Assembly: GCA_021107795.1 (NCBI GenBank)
Contig: JAIOSB010000021.1
Span: 5,249 to 69,248 of the forward strand
DNA: 64,000 bases
Source: a bacterium
GTDB taxonomy: Bacteria > Patescibacteriota > Dojkabacteria > SC72
Reading direction: 5' to 3'
The notes under the pieces were generated by a model. It was given only the letters and a program-made list of their open reading frames with translations. It was not told where the DNA came from and searched no databases. The position numbers and the translations under genes are program-made. Positions 1,132 through 36,814 of the stretch are shown in pieces. Positions within the stretch are counted from its first letter, which is position 1. Every line of letters starts with the position of its first letter.

Positions 1132-1162
1132 TCAATGTGTAAGAGGGTCTAGAGGTGGTTTT

Positions 1163-2113
1163 TCATTGTGTATTGTTGGTCAAAAAGGTTAGGTAATCTT
1201 CAACAATGTTTTCTGAGTTGTGTAGTACTTCATAAAGGTTGTAAGCTTGTTCGTATCCTCGATTGGTGATTCTGTCTAAACTTCTAACAGTTTTCTGTTT
1301 AATCTCCTCCGGAGTTCTATGATTTTTATCATATAGAAATTCTTTAATTATTTGAGTTACAACTTTTATTAGTGTTTCCTCCATATAGATGAATGGAGTT
1401 GTGTGAATCTTTTGTAGTTTTTTAGGAACTTCTATATGTTTTGTTAGCTCAACATGTTTTTGGAACAAACTGTTCTTCATGAGGTTTTTTTTAAAGATAC
1501 TGTGTGAGAATTCGTGTATTGCGTTTGAAATAACTGATTGTTGTACAAATTGTGTTTTGTTATCAATTTCATAAGGGCTTGTTATCGAATAAATATTGTT
1601 TTTTCTAAATAATCCGAAGCTGTGACCCAGTTCAAATATATTTGGTATGAGGATGAAGTTCATGTTGTTGTGATTAACGCCCCAAATCTTCTTTATCGAT
1701 TTCTCTACATCCCCATTAAAGTATTTCTCTATATCTTTGTTGAGAGTTTCGTGTAGGGGGAGTATCTCTGTAGTAATAAGTTCGTTGAAGTTTGTTTCTT
1801 TTGCTATTTCTTTAACTACGGGGTATATCTTTTCTGTATAGAATTTGGAGTTTTTTGGTCCAAAACCACATTCACCGTTCATTTCTTTCGATGAGAGGTC
1901 GGAGTTAGTGTGTATAGCATAGAGAGCGTATCGATAAGGGTGTATTGGATATGAATTGTGATGGTTTTGAAAGTTTTTATAAGAGGTGGCCTGAGAGTAG
2001 TTTATAAGTTTGAGAATCTTCTTTCCAAGAGGGTGGTATGGTTGATCTGGTTGGAGTTGTGCGAGTAAGGAGAAGAAGAAAAGGATGTTTTTATTAGATT
2101 TGATTTTTATCAT
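1163..2113 (-). CDS. HExxH-motif protein (DUF4932/zincin-like), putative RiPP tailoring enzyme or peptidase
   Basis: 316-aa ORF with AIHEFSHS and a downstream EE (YMEETL) as a possible third ligand. Lies directly downstream of the precursor peptide on the same strand. Confidence 0.6.
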   Translation of the reverse strand: MIKIKSNKNILFFFSLLAQLQPDQPYHPLGKKILKLINYSQATSYKNFQNHHNSYPIHPYRYALYAIHTNSDLSSKEMNGECGFGPKNSKFYTEKIYPVVKEIAKETNFNELITTEILPLHETLNKDIEKYFNGDVEKSIKKIWGVNHNNMNFILIPNIFELGHSFGLFRKNNIYSITSPYEIDNKTQFVQQSVISNAIHEFSHSIFKKNLMKNSLFQKHVELTKHIEVPKKLQKIHTTPFIYMEETLIKVVTQIIKEFLYDKNHRTPEEIKQKTVRSLDRITNRGYEQAYNLYEVLHNSENIVEDYLTFLTNNTQ

Positions 2114-2137
2114 AGGTGGTTTGTTAATATGAAGCTT

Positions 2138-2173
2138 GCCCGAGGGTGTAAAAAGTTTTTTACACCCCCGGGC
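2138..2173 (-). terminator. Strong stem-loop after the precursor gene (mRNA-stabilising hairpin or terminator)
   Basis: On the minus strand the arms are GCCCGGGGGTGTAAAAA and TTTTTACACCCTCGGGC. The single mismatch is a G-U pair only in the minus-strand transcript. No clear U-tract follows. Confidence 0.7.
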
Positions 2174-2193
2174 GTCTTGAGGAACTTTAGAGT

Positions 2194-2319
2194 CTAGTCT
2201 GTATCATAACATTCTCCGACACCACTAGAGTTATCTTCGAGTTCGCAAGCGCAACCATTGTTCGCATAGACTGAACTCGTGTCTTCAAGACTTACGACTT
2301 TACCAAAAAGTTCTGACAT
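2194..2319 (-). CDS. Putative RiPP (ranthipeptide-like) precursor, 41 aa: MSELFGKVVSLEDTSSVYANNGCACELEDNSSGVGECYDTD
   Basis: Hand-translated (below the ORF-track cutoff). ATG at 2319 with AAGGAG Shine-Dalgarno 8 nt upstream; TAG at 2196-2194. Starts 19 nt after the rSAM stop. Three Cys, two Cx3D motifs. Confidence 0.85.
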   Translation of the reverse strand: MSELFGKVVSLEDTSSVYANNGCACELEDNSSGVGECYDTD

Positions 2320-2338
2320 GATATTTTCTCCTTTTCTG

Positions 2339-3637
2339 TTAGGCTTCCAATTTTGTGATGAGAATGTTGAAAAGCATAGCTTTTGTTAATAAACAGTGCT
2401 CTTCTGACATTTTCCCATTGTTACTTAATCTTGTATGGTGGCACCCACCTGTGCAGTACCACTTTGCAAAGCAATCGTGACATTGTTTGAAGTTTTGAAT
2501 ACTCAAACCTCTAAGGAAGGAGACTTTTTCGTGATCAAAATGAAAATCTCCATTTGAGTCAATATTGCCTATGATGAAACGATTGGACAATTCATCCTGT
2601 GATCTTGTTACCCTGGTGCAGGATGAAATTTGTCCATCCGGCAAAACACAAAACATTTCTCCATTACCAGCACAAAACTCCGTTTTGGTAATAAGTTTAT
2701 GAGAATATGTTGACTTGAAAATCACACCAAGTTGATCTGCAAGCTTTTTAGCATCATTATAGGCTAGGAAGAAATCCTTATAGGAAACTTCAATCATCTC
2801 CTTTGTTGCACGACCTGTTAGAGTTAAAGGCTCAACTTTTAGGCTACACCCAAAAGCTTTGGCTATAAGAAGGAGCTCCTTTATTCGATGTATATTGTTT
2901 TGAGTAATTGTTGCTCTTATACTAAAGTCAACATGATGTTTTTCTAAGAACAACATTCCTCGGATACAATCATCGAATGATCCCCTTCCATTGGCTTTTA
3001 CTCTTTGAAGGTCGTGAACATCTTTTGGGCCATCTAGTGATACTGTTATGTGGAAATTGTTTTCTTTTAACCACTTTGCTTTCTTATCGGTTATTAATGT
3101 TCCATTTGTTACGAGGGAAAACTTAGTGGTGTTATTCCAGAGTCTCTTTACCTCTTCAGTTGCTTTCTGCAACTTGTTCCATTCTACTGTAGCCTCTCCA
3201 CCTCCATGAAATAGAAGTTTGAATGTTTTCTTTCCTACTTTTCTACTAGCTTTGATGGAAATTTTAATTGCCTGTTGGATAGTTTCCCAAGGGATACTAT
3301 CGTGTGTATCACCAGCAAAAGCGTAGCAGTATTTACATCTCAAATTACAGTTAGATGTTAGAGATAGGATTAAGTTTATTGGTTCATACTTTTTACCTCT
3401 CCTTGTTGCTATTTTTGGTAAGGGACCACTTAGTCCGTTTTCCTTCAGGAAAACTTCTAGCTCAGGATCAAGCTTGTTATTCAGAAAATAGTCTGTTAAC
3501 TTCTTGTAACCTCCTTTGTTTTTGATTGGAAAAAGTTTCTTTCGAAGTGGTGCGTACACTAACATGGTATTACCAGAACTGAGGATGTACAAATCTGTGC
3601 TAATCTTTTTGGACAAAATTTGGGGAGTTGAATTCAT
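2339..3637 (-). CDS. Radical SAM/SPASM peptide maturase with putative N-terminal RRE (PqqD-like) domain
   Basis: CNLRCKYC (Cx3Cx2C) and FHGGGE. SPASM cysteines in CAG...PDGQISSC...CHDCFAKWYCTGGC...HC. An ~80-aa N-terminal extension has an RRE-like strand/helix pattern ending FLKENGL. AAGGA SD upstream. Confidence 0.92.
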   Translation of the reverse strand: MNSTPQILSKKISTDLYILSSGNTMLVYAPLRKKLFPIKNKGGYKKLTDYFLNNKLDPELEVFLKENGLSGPLPKIATRRGKKYEPINLILSLTSNCNLRCKYCYAFAGDTHDSIPWETIQQAIKISIKASRKVGKKTFKLLFHGGGEATVEWNKLQKATEEVKRLWNNTTKFSLVTNGTLITDKKAKWLKENNFHITVSLDGPKDVHDLQRVKANGRGSFDDCIRGMLFLEKHHVDFSIRATITQNNIHRIKELLLIAKAFGCSLKVEPLTLTGRATKEMIEVSYKDFFLAYNDAKKLADQLGVIFKSTYSHKLITKTEFCAGNGEMFCVLPDGQISSCTRVTRSQDELSNRFIIGNIDSNGDFHFDHEKVSFLRGLSIQNFKQCHDCFAKWYCTGGCHHTRLSNNGKMSEEHCLLTKAMLFNILITKLEA

Positions 3638-3679
3638 GACATAGTCCTTTTTGTTATTAATGAGCTAGTCGAATGCTGG

Positions 3680-3708
3680 AATATATCACAAATGTCCTGG
3701 TATTGCAA
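3680..3708 (-). promoter_or_regulatory. Sigma70-type promoter for the rSAM-precursor operon
   Basis: Minus strand TTGCAA-17 nt-TATATT with a TG extension (TGATATATT), about 40 nt upstream of the rSAM ATG. Confidence 0.6.
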
Positions 3709-3779
3709 GGGAATCTAGGGGTTTCCCATTGTATGAGGAATTTGATAATATGCTGGTATAGTTTATAATCTACATTATT

Positions 3780-4307
3780 ATGAAGAAGGTAATTATTGTC
3801 TCTCAAAATCCCGTCAAGATTCAGGCTGTTAAGAATGGCTTTAAGAAAATGTTCCCTAATCAAGAATTTGAGTTTATTGGTATAACTGTTCCTTCAAATG
3901 TCTCTGATCAGCCTTCTAGTAATGAGGAGACTTTCATTGGAGCAAAGAATAGAGTCGACAATGCATCCAACGAGATAAATGACGCTGATTTTTATGTCGG
4001 TATGGAAAGTGGGATTGAATATATTAAAAATGAAATGGAGGCTTTTGCTTGGGTGGTTGTAAAGTCGGCTGGTAAGTATGGTAAATCAAGGACGGCAACA
4101 TTTTTTCTTCCAACAGAAGTTGTTAAACTTATTAAAGAAGGGAAAGAGCTTGGTGAAGTGGATGATATTGTATTTAAAAGGAAAAACTCTAAACATGCAA
4201 ATGGGACTGTTGGGATTTTGACAGAAAATGTAATCGATAGAACAGGATATTGCACAGACGCAGTAATATTGTCTTTAATCCCCTTTAAGAACGTTGATTT
4301 ATATTAA
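3780..4307 (+). CDS. yjjX: Inosine/xanthosine triphosphatase
   Basis: SQNPVKIQAV, VPSNVSDQP, ETFIGAKNR, GMESGI, G-ELG and GTVGILT motifs. Confidence 0.88.
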   Translation: MKKVIIVSQNPVKIQAVKNGFKKMFPNQEFEFIGITVPSNVSDQPSSNEETFIGAKNRVDNASNEINDADFYVGMESGIEYIKNEMEAFAWVVVKSAGKYGKSRTATFFLPTEVVKLIKEGKELGEVDDIVFKRKNSKHANGTVGILTENVIDRTGYCTDAVILSLIPFKNVDLY

Positions 4308-5335
4308 AAAATCTCTTTAATCACCCCACCCCCTATACACTCCTGCCTTTTGTAAAGTACTAAGCTCTGTCCAATAGAGGGTGTCCAAACCTTCCCTTTA
4401 AAAACAATTGTTTTACTATCCCAATCTACACTACACCTACTACCCCTTGCCCTATACCTCACTACTCCTGTTAAGCCCTTTGTAATATTAATATTCTCTT
4501 TGTTTATAAAACTAAAATCTTTTAGAATGAAAGTATCCTTCCAAAGATATGGATTGTACTTACCCTTTGCTACAAATATTGTATTGGTAGAGATATCCTT
4601 CTTGGCTACAAAGTAAGGCAAATCACTTCCTCCTACTAAGATACCCCTTCTCTGACCTAAAGTGAGTGAATGAATACCTGAGTGTCTTCCTACAACTTCT
4701 TTTGTATCAATATCTATAATATCTCCCTCCTTGTTTATAATATGCTCATCAAGATACTCACTAAGAGAGGTGTCTATGAAACATACCTCTTGACTGTCTT
4801 TTTTACTCATATTTGGCAGAGATAGGCTTTGAGCTTGCTTTCTTACCATCTCCTTAGTCATATTACCAATGGGAAAGATGGTTCTCCTTAAGATATCCTC
4901 TGATATACCACTGAGGAAATATGATTGATCCTTTCCACGATCTCTTCCTCTAAAAAGTTTTCCATCTTTTGTTTTACAGTAGTGTCCAGTAGCGATTAGG
5001 TCTGCACCATTATCAAAACACCAGTTAGCAAAGATACCAAATTTGAATTTAATGTTACAATTAACACATGGGTTTGGAGTCTTTCCTTCTTTGTATGATT
5101 TTATAAAAGGCGAGATTACACTCTTTTCAAAATTTTCTTGAAAATCAACAATCTCAAGTGGAATACCAATATGCTTTGCAATGGACTTAGCTTCTTCCTC
5201 TGCTACTTTGTTACACTGCTCATTGTGTGTATTTCTAAACATTACTGCAGTTACATCATATTTCTTTGTTAGTAGAAATGCAGAGACCGCACTATCTACT
5301 CCCCCTGAGAATCCTACAAATACTTTCTTTTTCAT
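4304..5335 (-). CDS. mnmA: tRNA 2-thiouridine(34) synthase MnmA
   Basis: SGGVDS, TPNPCVNCN, ATGHY, KDQSYFL, DSQEVCF, TLGQRRG. Confidence 0.97.
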   Translation of the reverse strand: MKKKVFVGFSGGVDSAVSAFLLTKKYDVTAVMFRNTHNEQCNKVAEEEAKSIAKHIGIPLEIVDFQENFEKSVISPFIKSYKEGKTPNPCVNCNIKFKFGIFANWCFDNGADLIATGHYCKTKDGKLFRGRDRGKDQSYFLSGISEDILRRTIFPIGNMTKEMVRKQAQSLSLPNMSKKDSQEVCFIDTSLSEYLDEHIINKEGDIIDIDTKEVVGRHSGIHSLTLGQRRGILVGGSDLPYFVAKKDISTNTIFVAKGKYNPYLWKDTFILKDFSFINKENINITKGLTGVVRYRARGSRCSVDWDSKTIVFKGKVWTPSIGQSLVLYKRQECIGGGVIKEIF

Positions 5336-8663: not shown

Positions 8664-8740
8664 GCGAGAGTAGTTCAATTGGTTAGAATATCTGTTTTCC
8701 AAACAGAGGGTTGCGGGTTCGAGTCCCGTCTCTCGCTCCA
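8664..8740 (+). tRNA. tRNA-Gly (TCC)
   Basis: Cloverleaf with acceptor GCGAGAG/CTCTCGC, anticodon stem TCTGT/ACAGA, loop TTTCCAA, TTCGAGT T-loop and encoded CCA. Confidence 0.96.
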
Positions 8741-22601: not shown

Positions 22602-22676
22602 TGCGGGATCGTCTAATTGGTAGGACGCCGGCCTTTGAAGCCGAGAATCATAGTTCGAGTCTATGTCCCGCAACCA
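22602..22676 (+). tRNA. tRNA-Gln (TTG)
   Basis: Acceptor TGCGGGA/TCCCGCA, anticodon loop CTTTGAA, T arm CATAG-TTCGAGT-CTATG, encoded CCA. Confidence 0.95.
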
Positions 22677-36737: not shown

Positions 36738-36814
36738 TGGTCGGGGAAACAGGACTCGAACCTGCGACCTCTGCTTCCCAAAAGCAGCGTTCTAGCCATC
36801 TGAACTATTCCCCG
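36738..36814 (-). tRNA. tRNA-Pro (TGG)
   Basis: Minus strand CGGGGAA...CTGCT-TTTGGGA-AGCAG...TTCGAGT...TTCCCCG-A-CCA. Confidence 0.96.

What the first reader, a model, noticed from the sequence alone, without database searches (positions are those of the whole stretch)
1163..3708. Unannotated RiPP cluster: RRE-rSAM/SPASM + 41-aa Cx3D precursor + hairpin + HExxH protein
Seen in sequence: a minus-strand unit of sigma70 promoter (3680-3708), rSAM/SPASM gene, small ORF 2319-2194 with an AAGGAG SD, 17-bp-arm hairpin and HExxH gene. Established knowledge: SPASM radical SAM enzymes with an N-terminal RRE next to short Cys-containing ORFs make thioether-crosslinked peptides (sactipeptides, ranthipeptides such as freyrasin and thermocellin). 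Inference: this is a compact ranthipeptide-like pathway in what looks like a metabolically reduced CPR bacterium, where such clusters are rarely described. No ABC exporter is visible, so the product may act intracellularly or leave by a route encoded elsewhere.
Basis: partly seen in the sequence, partly recalled or inferred. Interest (0 to 1): 0.92.

Follow-up and report, generated by a model that had tools for sequence, protein, structure and literature searches.

The report
Modified-peptide gene cassette in a tiny bacterium
A very small-genome candidate-phyla bacterium carries a compact gene set for making a short, chemically cross-linked peptide, with a conserved partner peptidase whose role is still open.

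Summary
The features are real. On the minus strand lie a radical SAM/SPASM gene (3637..2339), a 41-codon Cys/Asp ORF (2319..2194), a 17-nt-arm hairpin (2173..2138) and an HExxH gene (2113..1163). The promoter-like site is no better than chance.

The RiPP reading holds on comparative evidence. In a survey of 120 species genomes of the same order, all 24 loci of this rSAM family have a small Cys-containing ORF directly downstream. Each also has a peptidase gene next to it: the HExxH type in 12, an S41 type in 12. The hairpin after the small ORF is conserved with compensatory changes.

The maturase scores best against PapB and CteB but falls below every curated cut-off. The precursor fits no curated family. 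The genome (0.67 Mb, relatives named Dojkabacteria/WS6) is CPR-like.

Two points are weaker. The N-terminal "RRE" matched nothing by sequence; the model shows four strands and two helices, and no fold search could be run. The HExxH protein is a divergent DUF4932 putative zinc peptidase. It often survives intact where the rSAM and precursor are missing, so it may be an immunity or scavenging peptidase rather than the leader peptidase. The thioether chemistry is inferred.

The parts
3680..3708 (-). Promoter-like site (TTGCAA, 17-nt spacer, TATATT, TG-extended), 43 nt upstream of the rSAM start codon.
   Evidence: 9 of 12 matches. The region holds 7 such sites against 8.3 +/- 3.1 in shuffles, so the position is plausible but the match is not above chance.
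2339..3637 (-). Radical SAM/SPASM peptide maturase, 432 aa. The true start is at 3637, not Met25.
   Evidence: Pfam Radical_SAM at 2e-14. The best NCBIfam model is PapB at 151 bits against a cut-off of 340. Cys97/101/104 and Cys322/340/386/389/395/399/415 are invariant in 47 sequences. The family profile matches CteB (5wgg) at 1.1e-58. The model has pLDDT 95.0 and pTM 0.91. The N-terminal 24 residues are conserved in relatives.
3377..3637 (-). N-terminal extension of the maturase (residues 1 to about 87). It sits where CteB has its RRE.
   Evidence: Model: strands 8-13, 16-21, 24-29 and 34-37, helices 41-52 and 58-66, then a linker to residue 87; pLDDT is 93-96 over residues 11-70. Pro30 and Leu64 are invariant in 12 sequences. 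There is no sequence match to solved structures, to SCIFF-maturase N-termini or to PqqD.
2194..2319 (-). Precursor peptide gene, 41 aa. It has a short N-terminal leader with an almost invariant Phe-Gly pair and an acidic core with 3 Cys and two Cys-X3-Asp motifs.
   Evidence: ORF and Shine-Dalgarno. Homologous small ORFs lie directly after the rSAM in 24 of 24 family loci. In the alignment of 19 precursors, Phe5 and Gly6 are invariant. No Pfam or NCBIfam family matches.
2138..2173 (-). Conserved hairpin just after the precursor stop codon. It is the probable end or attenuator of the rSAM-precursor transcript.
   Evidence: A strong hairpin sits at the same place in 17 of 18 intergenic regions of the acidic-core clade. 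Across 9 sequences, 8 of 13 pairs change on both sides; the covariation score is 0.483 against 0.238 in shuffles (0 of 500 reach it), and slid controls score at most 0.18.
1163..2113 (-). Divergent DUF4932-like putative zinc metallopeptidase, 316 aa, with HExxH at residues 200-204 and Glu246.
   Evidence: Only 27 representatives among 1.84 billion proteins. Trp144, Pro157, Asn197, His200, Glu201 and His204 are invariant; Ser203, Glu246 and Gly286 are nearly so. Five of 22 family members match PF16286, two above its cut-off. The window's protein against one of those two gives BLASTP 2e-43. The model has pLDDT 93.8.
1134..4303 (.). Lineage-specific block that holds the three cassette genes plus a divergent NTPase_I-T gene (3780..4307, +).
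   Evidence: One same-genus genome has 18 bp at this site and another has an unrelated 135-aa ORF. The NTPase matches Pfam at 7e-54.

Best explanation
The locus is a ribosomal-peptide (RiPP) maturation cassette of a Dojkabacteria-type CPR bacterium. The rSAM/SPASM enzyme and the 41-aa precursor form one transcription unit that ends at the conserved hairpin.

Proposed mechanism, all inferred: the short N-terminal leader carries a Phe-Gly pair followed by branched aliphatic residues. It docks as a strand on the strand-rich N-terminal domain of the maturase. The enzyme cleaves SAM reductively and abstracts a hydrogen from an acceptor residue. It then joins a Cys sulfur, held at an auxiliary Fe-S cluster, to that carbon. 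The likely sites are the two Cys-X3-Asp motifs (Cys25-Asp29 and Cys37-Asp41), giving a small acidic peptide with two, at most three, thioether rings.

The adjacent DUF4932-like zinc peptidase acts on the peptide. It either removes the leader or degrades and neutralises the product.

Shown here: the gene family relations, the conserved gene order, the conserved hairpin, the Fe-S and zinc-site motifs, and the gain-and-loss pattern. Inferred: the binding mode, the thioether chemistry and the peptidase's role.
For: 1. Maturase. It has the rSAM and SPASM Cys sets. The best curated models are all peptide maturases that act on Cys-rich targets: PapB 151 bits, ScfB-related 120.7, CcpM 119.8, nif11-type 119.2 and SCIFF maturase 118.1. 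The closest solved structure by family profile is the thioether-forming CteB, at 1.1e-58.

2. Precursor. In 120 species genomes of the order, the rSAM family has 28 matching places. I set aside 3 distant places and 1 pseudogene. All 24 remaining loci have a small Cys-containing ORF directly downstream. The same holds in 6 of 6 Patescibacteria loci found through the rSAM in genome contigs. The Phe-Gly pair is invariant in the 19 aligned precursors, while the rSAMs fall to about 35% identity.

3. Hairpin. It is conserved in place, with compensatory changes.

4. Peptidase. All 24 loci carry one next to the precursor: 12 the HExxH type on the same strand and 12 a convergent Peptidase_S41. The S41-linked rSAMs form one clade with 100/100 support.

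5. The three genes travel together. The window and its nearest relative L107 (78% rSAM identity) share only window 1157-3672, and their flanks are unrelated. A same-genus genome has an empty site.

6. Chemistry precedent. PapB links Cys to Asp or Glu in Cys-X3-Asp/Glu motifs and tolerates spacings of 0 to 6 residues (PMC9413430, abstract). It can also use a C-terminal residue (PMC12373016, abstract).

7. Family precedent. Clusters with an rSAM/SPASM protein, an S41 peptidase and a DUF4932 'putative metalloprotease' have been noted in human-microbiome genomes (PMC5410138, one passage read).
Against: - No chemistry or expression data exist. No RNA run was listed.
- The maturase is far below every curated cut-off: 151 bits against 340 for PapB and 118 against 425 for the SCIFF maturase. 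Pfam's SPASM model did not match it.
- The N-terminal domain matched no RRE by sequence.
- The window's precursor is the shortest of its clade. It has 3 Cys, where its five closest relatives have 5 to 7 by my count, and it lacks their last Cys-rich block.
- Many relatives space Cys and the acidic residue by two residues, not three (read).
- The hairpin has no U-tract.
- The HExxH gene often stands alone.
- The genome shows no recognised SAM synthetase and no Flavodoxin_1.
Confidence: 0.75

Rival explanations
1. The rSAM and precursor are a RiPP pair, but the HExxH/DUF4932-like protein is not the leader peptidase. It is a self-protection ('immunity') or peptide-degrading enzyme. It is kept even when the producer genes are lost, as orphan bacteriocin immunity genes are.
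For: - In the order survey, 18 of 30 HExxH copies lie away from any rSAM (3 of them at contig edges). Twelve of 25 species that have the gene lack the rSAM family.
- On the HExxH tree, orphan copies are interspersed with cluster copies: 7 label changes, no more clustered than shuffled labels (mean 6.2).
- A 1,953-bp indel removes exactly the rSAM, two precursors and the hairpin. It lies between flanks that are 97.6-98.6% identical, and the HExxH gene stays intact.
- The orphan L102 keeps a relic of the precursor's C-terminal core and a degraded hairpin beside an intact HExxH ORF.
- The S41 type shows the same pattern: 5 of its 17 close matches are in genomes without the rSAM. Two genomes (G108, G124) hold both peptidases and no rSAM.
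- Orphan immunity genes are a known pattern for bacteriocins (PMC12546727, passages read).
- The hairpin and the indel boundary put the HExxH gene outside the rSAM-precursor unit.
Against: - Known immunity proteins of thioether peptides are not of this family, as far as I recall (not from a call).
- A general or shared leader peptidase could also be kept for other substrates.
- No signal peptide or membrane anchor was tested.
- Antimicrobial activity of the peptide is itself unshown.
Confidence: 0.35
2. The enzyme installs a different modification, such as a carbon-carbon cyclophane link, an ether link or an epimerisation. Or the link is to an alpha carbon (sactipeptide), so 'ranthipeptide-like' is the wrong label.
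For: - rSAM/SPASM maturases of similar score include cyclophane formers (YhhB, GrrM/OscB, AmcB), DynA and QhpD.
- All scores are below cut-off, so no family assignment is possible.
- Tyr is common in the cores.
- A review notes that the rules that decide bond type are not understood (PMC10114670, passages read).
Against: - The five best models and the best solved structure are thioether formers.
- Cys is the one residue type present in every core. Acidic residues lie within a few positions of Cys in both clades.
Confidence: 0.25
3. In this particular genome the cassette is decaying or silent. The precursor is a truncated remnant, and the host may be unable to supply SAM or electrons.
For: - The window's precursor lacks the last Cys-rich block of its closest relatives and has 3 Cys.
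- Decay is seen elsewhere in the family: a pseudogene with 5 stops (L164), a truncated rSAM with a disrupted precursor (L155), and stops in L143 and L154.
- No metK-type or archaeal-type SAM synthetase and no Flavodoxin_1 was found, in a genome that is 98.65% complete.
Against: - All three ORFs are intact, and every invariant residue of both enzymes is kept.
- The genome keeps five other rSAM genes, so SAM must be available.
- The sequence is identical in contigs of two studies.
- Both Cys-X3-Asp motifs are retained.
Confidence: 0.15
4. This is not a RiPP system. The rSAM matures a protein, like anSME or QhpD, and the small ORF is a chance frame.
For: anSME is the second-best solved relative, at 3.7e-38. 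The sulfatase-maturase model scores 114 bits.
Against: - The small ORF is conserved in 24 of 24 loci, with an almost invariant leader motif, its own Shine-Dalgarno and a conserved hairpin after it.
- anSME-type relatives lack the N-terminal extension.
Confidence: 0.03

Closest known systems
PapB/PapA (freyrasin) ranthipeptide system
   Same: An rSAM/SPASM maturase, and the best-scoring curated model for this protein. The target is rich in Cys and Asp/Glu with Cys-X3-Asp motifs. PapB accepts varied spacing and a C-terminal acceptor (PMC9413430 and PMC12373016, abstracts).
   Different: The score is 151 bits against the family cut-off of 340. The precursor matches no curated family. It has two motifs where PapA has six. 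The host is a CPR bacterium. A DUF4932-like or S41 peptidase is the fixed neighbour.
CteB/CteA (SCIFF, thermocellin)
   Same: The closest solved structure by family profile: 5wgg at 1.1e-58, aligned from profile position 48 to the end. Both have an N-terminal extension, an rSAM core and a seven-Cys SPASM domain.
   Different: The SCIFF-maturase model scores 118 bits against a cut-off of 425. The N-terminal domains do not align profile to profile (hhalign probability 0.1). The model has four strands and two helices, against the three strands and three helices described for RREs (PMC10352776, passage).
Microbiome clusters with an rSAM/SPASM protein, an S41 peptidase and DUF4932
   Same: The same three protein families occur together in putative peptide-modification clusters (PMC5410138, one passage read).
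   Different: Those clusters also hold lanthionine-dehydratase-like and thiopeptide-type genes, and both peptidases sit together. Here each locus has one peptidase or the other. The paper's Table S5 was not seen, because supplements are closed.
Orphan immunity genes of bacteriocin loci
   Same: An accessory gene is retained after the producer genes are lost, or in genomes that never had them (PMC12546727, passages).
   Different: The retained gene here is a putative metallopeptidase. Neither toxicity of the peptide nor protection by the gene has been shown.

Membership tests
Radical SAM superfamily | CX3CX2C motif and the Radical_SAM domain | tested here: met
   Pfam PF04055 at 54.6 bits against a cut-off of 29.5. 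Cys97, Cys101 and Cys104 are invariant in 47 sequences.
SPASM subfamily | A C-terminal domain with seven or eight Cys for two auxiliary clusters | tested here: met
   Seven invariant Cys at 322, 340, 386, 389, 395, 399 and 415. The profile aligns through the SPASM regions of CteB and anSME. Pfam's own SPASM model did not match the window's protein at E <= 0.1.
PapB family (NF047865, equivalog) | Whole-protein score at or above the curated cut-off of 340 bits | tested here: not met
   151 bits.
SCIFF system (TIGR03974 maturase with a SCIFF precursor) | Maturase score of at least 425 bits and a six-Cys-in-45 precursor family match | tested here: not met
   118.1 bits for the maturase, and no NCBIfam match at all for the precursor.
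Ranthipeptides | Thioether from Cys sulfur to a beta or gamma carbon | not testable with these tools
   This needs MS/MS and NMR of the product. Only the Cys-X3-Asp motifs and the nearest families point this way.
Sactipeptides | Thioether from Cys sulfur to an alpha carbon | not testable with these tools
   Same limitation. The RumMC sactisynthase model scores 94 bits, lower than PapB.
RRE (PqqD-like winged helix-turn-helix) | Three strands and three helices that bind the leader, or detectable kinship to PqqD or known RREs | tested here: inconclusive
   Sequence tests were negative: solved structures (best E 0.16, unrelated proteins), SCIFF-maturase N-termini (hhalign probability 0.1) and PqqD PF05402 in the genome (none at E <= 10). 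The model shows a confident domain of four strands and two helices at the RRE position.
DUF4932 (PF16286) | A match to the Pfam model above 28.7 bits | tested here: inconclusive
   The window's protein has no match. Five of 22 family members match, and two are above the cut-off at 47.8 and 45.1 bits. The window's protein against one of those two gives BLASTP 2e-43 over 328 columns. The language-model search puts DUF4932 first at 0.97. Membership therefore rests on a chain of homology.
Gluzincin-type zinc metallopeptidases | HExxH on a helix, plus a downstream Glu as third zinc ligand, in the zincin fold | tested here: inconclusive
   His200, Glu201 and His204 are invariant and Glu246 is nearly so. 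In the model a strand block (152-188) precedes helix 191-213, which carries HExxH, and helix 240-265 carries Glu246. The fold was not compared, and no solved structure matches by sequence at E <= 10.
Intrinsic (rho-independent) terminator | A GC-rich hairpin followed by a U-tract | tested here: not met
   The hairpin is present, but there is no T-run; the scan's rule found 0 sites. A role as transcript end or attenuator is inferred from conservation and from the indel boundary.

The most novel reading that the evidence does not exclude
Ultra-small Dojkabacteria run a peptide-based contest or signalling system. A self-contained module (promoter, rSAM, one or two precursors, hairpin) is repeatedly gained and lost next to a resident peptidase gene. 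The peptidases, DUF4932-like for acidic cores and S41 for basic cores, are kept as orphan defences against neighbours' peptides. That would be the first producer-and-immunity polymorphism described for CPR bacteria, and it would give DUF4932 a function.
Probability: 0.25. Interest if true: 0.75.

Novelty: new variant of a known kind. Interest (0 to 1): 0.55.

Why it matters
CPR bacteria have tiny genomes and are usually reported to have few or no biosynthetic clusters. One MAG survey found none in its Patescibacteria (PMC11613949, passage).

Here a specific family of rSAM-modified peptides turns up in 20 of 100 species of one CPR family, the window's genome included. It has two core types, each with its own peptidase, and clear gain and loss between near-identical strains.

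That makes a small, tractable test case of three genes and a 41-aa substrate. It bears on what modified peptides do for episymbiotic bacteria. It could also give DUF4932 a function and add a short-leader substrate-enzyme pair to the thioether toolbox.

Tried and rejected
- Complex prediction of rSAM with precursor.
- Expression. No RNA holder was listed.
- A first genome-contig scan with the single rSAM found nothing. The alignment-based scan did.
- Non-CPR relatives (Bacteroidales, Bryobacterales, Acidobacteria, Thermoleophilia, Actinomycetes; 26-33% identity) showed no precursor of this type.
- Mobile-element carriage. The best rSAM match was 27% identity in viral contigs and 28.7-30.8% in plasmids, so no family member was found in either.
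- Defence system. PADLOC gave only a generic rSAM-core match to viperins, at 50.5 bits.
- Boundary repeats. No long direct repeats were seen at the block boundaries or at the L111/L112 junction.
- A table of Cys-to-acid spacings and core charges was not computed. Statements on spacing and Cys counts rest on my reading.
- A proteases review held no whole-word hit for sactipeptide, ranthipeptide or S41 (PMC10885120).
Full report
**What is there.** The minus strand of window 1163-3708 holds the following, in order of transcription.
- A 432-aa ORF at 3637..2339.
- A 41-aa ORF at 2319..2194, 19 nt further on, with an AAAGGAG Shine-Dalgarno 8 nt before its ATG.
- An inverted repeat with 17-nt arms at 2173..2138.
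- A 316-aa ORF at 2113..1163.

The hairpin folds at -30.6 kcal/mol with z = -5.41, and 0 of 200 shuffles fold as well. It is not followed by a T-run. The promoter-like site at 3708..3680 is a 9-of-12 match, and such sites are no more frequent here than in shuffled sequence (7 against 8.3 +/- 3.1). Contigs from runs of two studies, labelled marine sediment metagenomes, cover the stretch with no differing letter; some may be the source sample.

**Organism.** The window lies in a genome of 666,718 bp in 30 contigs, scored 98.65% complete. Relatives of its proteins are named Candidatus Dojkabacteria, candidate division WS6 or Patescibacteria group.

**The maturase.**
- The 432-aa protein matches Pfam Radical_SAM.
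- Its best NCBIfam models are peptide maturases for Cys-rich targets. PapB leads at 151 bits, followed by ScfB-related, CcpM, nif11-type and SCIFF maturases. All are far below their cut-offs.
- In an alignment of 47 family members, the CX3CX2C Cys (97, 101, 104) and seven C-terminal Cys (322, 340, 386, 389, 395, 399, 415) are invariant. That is the SPASM count described in the literature (PMC10352776, passage).
- The family profile finds CteB (5wgg) at 1.1e-58 and anSME at 3.7e-38 among solved structures.
- The AlphaFold model is confident, with pLDDT 95.0 and pTM 0.91.
- The public gene call of 408 aa starts at Met25. The first 24 residues are conserved in relatives, so 3637 is the start.

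**The small ORF is a real precursor.** I anchored on the rSAM in three ways.
- In the 40 nearest genomes, three full-length homologues (36-40% identity) each have a small Cys-containing ORF directly downstream.
- In genome contigs, 6 of 6 Patescibacteria loci have one.
- In a survey of 120 species genomes of the order, 22 genomes gave 28 matching places at E <= 1e-40. I set aside 3 distant places (two in G028, one in G092) and one pseudogene with five stops (L164). All 24 remaining loci have such an ORF. A motif search found 22 of them and I found 2 by eye, with variant leaders. One, in L155, looks frameshifted and sits beside a truncated rSAM.

Nineteen precursors align with an invariant Phe-Gly pair near the N-terminus, followed by branched aliphatic residues. 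The two found by eye show that the residues around it can vary. No Pfam or NCBIfam family matches any of them above threshold. One relative gives sub-threshold hits (E about 0.007) to two Cys-rich rSAM-target families.

**Two core types, two peptidases.** Half of the 24 loci have acidic cores rich in Cys, Asp and Glu, followed on the same strand by a homologue of the HExxH gene. The other half have short, Lys-rich basic cores followed by a convergent gene that matches Peptidase_S41 (5.8e-10). The split is 12 to 12. On a tree of 20 rSAMs (17 CPR loci chosen to span the loci then in hand, plus 3 non-CPR outgroups), the CPR family is one group (100/99). The five S41-linked rows are one clade (100/100), and the window pairs with L107 (100/99). 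Some genomes carry both types.

**The window's precursor.** It belongs to the acidic type. It shares the leader and the first part of the core with its closest relatives, but stops where they go on with a further Cys-rich block. It has 3 Cys where the five closest have 5 to 7 by my count. It keeps two Cys-X3-Asp motifs, the second ending at the C-terminal Asp.

**The hairpin.** A strong hairpin follows the precursor stop codon in 17 of 18 intergenic regions of the acidic type (z <= -4.7; L115 is weak). Many of those 18 are near-identical, and by lineage the count is about 9 of 10. Both basic-type regions folded also show one. On nine diverse sequences, 84.5% of cells pair against 72.0% in shuffles (0 of 500 reach it). 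Eight of 13 pairs change on both sides (12 of 500), and controls with slid partners score at most 0.18 against 0.483.

**The HExxH protein.**
- An exhaustive search of 1.84 billion representatives found only 27 relatives, nearly all of 295-346 aa.
- In 22 aligned members, Trp144, Pro157, Asn197, His200, Glu201 and His204 are invariant. Ser203, Glu246 and Gly286 are nearly so. That is an HExxH motif with a Glu 42 residues after the second His.
- The window's protein matches no Pfam or NCBIfam family and no solved structure by sequence.
- Five of the 22 members match DUF4932, two of them above its cut-off. The window's protein aligns with one of those two at 2e-43. A language-model search ranks DUF4932 first.
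- The model is confident, with pLDDT 93.8 and pTM 0.92. A strand block (152-188) precedes the helix that carries HExxH (191-213), and Glu246 lies on helix 240-265.
- I could not compare the fold. The only paper holding 'DUF4932' calls it a putative metalloprotease found in clusters with an rSAM/SPASM protein and an S41 peptidase (PMC5410138, passage; search).

**Is the HExxH gene part of the pathway?**

For:
- Every acidic-type rSAM locus has it (12 of 12).
- The window and L107 share only the three genes, window 1157-3672, in unrelated flanks.
- In the window's own genus the whole block 1134-4303 is missing. One genome has 18 bp there and another an unrelated 135-aa ORF.

Against a dedicated role:
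- I anchored on the HExxH gene in 31 loci from two collections, some of them duplicates. Fourteen have the rSAM and precursor directly upstream. Two have the precursor at a contig edge. Eleven have neither within the sequence available. Four are uninformative.
- In the order survey, 25 of 120 genomes have the gene, at 30 places. Twelve places are next to the rSAM and 18 are elsewhere. Twelve genomes have the gene but not the rSAM family.
- Of five genomes with orphan copies, only one has the rSAM family, and it lies elsewhere.
- On a tree of 21 HExxH proteins (14 cluster-linked, 7 orphan), the orphans are scattered: 7 label changes, no better than shuffled labels.
- L111 and L112 are 97.6-98.6% identical on both sides of a 1,953-bp indel. 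The indel is exactly the upstream promoter-like region, the rSAM, two precursors and the hairpin, and it ends 16 nt before the HExxH start codon.
- The orphan L102 still holds, in frame, the last part of a precursor core and a degraded hairpin in front of an intact HExxH ORF.
- L105 and L106 share the upstream chaperonin gene, with and without the module.
- The S41 gene behaves alike. Of its 17 close matches, 12 are next to the rSAM and 5 are in genomes without it.

So the producer half comes and goes and the peptidase stays. That fits a shared or general peptidase. It also fits the pattern of orphan immunity genes (PMC12546727, passages).

**The RRE.** The N-terminal 87 residues are conserved within the family and sit where CteB has its RRE. 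HMMER aligned the family profile with CteB only from position 48 on, which by my reading is the last helix of CteB's N-terminal domain.
- A profile of the domain found nothing relevant among solved structures.
- It did not align with the N-termini of five SCIFF maturases fetched for the purpose (hhalign probability 0.1; both profiles are thin).
- Pfam PqqD found nothing in the genome at E <= 10.
- The model gives four strands and two helices at high confidence.
- RREs are described as three strands and three helices, with the leader adding a strand next to strand 3 and helix 3 in CteB (PMC8326336 and PMC10352776, passages). A shorter variant has been called RRE-like in a Bacteroidales enzyme (PMC10352776, passage).

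The claim remains open. The leader's run of aliphatic residues would suit strand addition, but that is inference.

**Mechanism and odds.**
- An rSAM-precursor RiPP pair: about 0.9.
- The modification is a Cys thioether: about 0.6.
- The link is to a non-alpha carbon of Asp or Glu (a ranthipeptide): about 0.4.
- The HExxH protein is an active zinc peptidase: about 0.7.
- It is the leader peptidase: about 0.35. It is an immunity or degrading enzyme: about 0.35. Otherwise it has some unrelated role.

No exporter lies in the cassette. Two relatives have ABC genes nearby, and the window's genome has an ABC exporter pair on another contig at 22% identity. The genome has six rSAM genes. It has no recognised SAM synthetase of either type and no Flavodoxin_1, so how SAM and electrons are supplied is unknown.

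**Novelty.**
- Searches for 'Dojkabacteria' with 'radical SAM' gave 0 papers.
- 'Ranthipeptide' with 'Patescibacteria' gave 15 papers. I read passages in two of them. One reports no BGCs in its Patescibacteria MAGs and the other does not link the two terms.
- 'Radical SAM', 'RiPP' and 'candidate phyla radiation' gave 5 papers. Adding 'biosynthetic gene clusters' with 'Patescibacteria' gave 9. For both I saw the listings only.

I found no description of this family. Supplementary tables of those surveys, which I could not open, may list such clusters as automatic calls. The kind, an rSAM/SPASM-modified Cys-rich peptide, is well known. The precursor family, the maturase subfamily, the either-or peptidase partner and the gain-and-loss pattern in CPR genomes are new as far as these searches show.

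**Limits.** No fold search and no complex prediction could be run, and there are no expression data. Neighbourhood counts rest on short contigs and on one genome per species. Related genomes are not independent samples.

Noticed in passing
window 1134-4303; G001:C76 and G002:C1 (loci L165-L169): The slot between the mnmA-like gene (5335..4304) and the UvrD-like helicase gene varies within the genus. It holds 18 bp in one genome, an unrelated 135-aa ORF in another, and here a 3.17-kb block. The block also carries a divergent NTPase_I-T (DUF84) gene at 3780-4307.
   Followed up: partly
whole genome G000: The genome has six radical SAM genes, but no bacterial metK (TIGR01034), no archaeal SAM synthetase (PF01941) and no Flavodoxin_1 (PF00258). 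It is scored 98.65% complete.
   Followed up: partly
G102 (loci L142, L159, L164); G100, G105 and G127: Single genomes carry two or three copies of the cassette, with acidic and basic types side by side. One copy, G102:C1, is a pseudogene with five in-frame stops.
   Followed up: partly
L111:2944-3412; L013:1715-1959 (= L151): Some loci hold two tandem precursor genes of differing core sequence after one rSAM.
   Followed up: no
G108 and G124: Two genomes hold orphan copies of both peptidase types, HExxH and S41, and no rSAM of the family.
   Followed up: no
window 3566-3637: The public gene call for the rSAM (P0001, 408 aa) starts at Met25. It drops 24 conserved residues that form the first strands of the N-terminal domain.
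   Followed up: yes
window 8664-8737, 22602-22673, 36741-36814: Three tRNA genes are the only Rfam matches at gathering score in the window.
   Followed up: no
L115:95-364: This metagenome locus holds a masked stretch (read as X) inside the rSAM N-terminus, and its post-precursor hairpin is weak.
   Followed up: no
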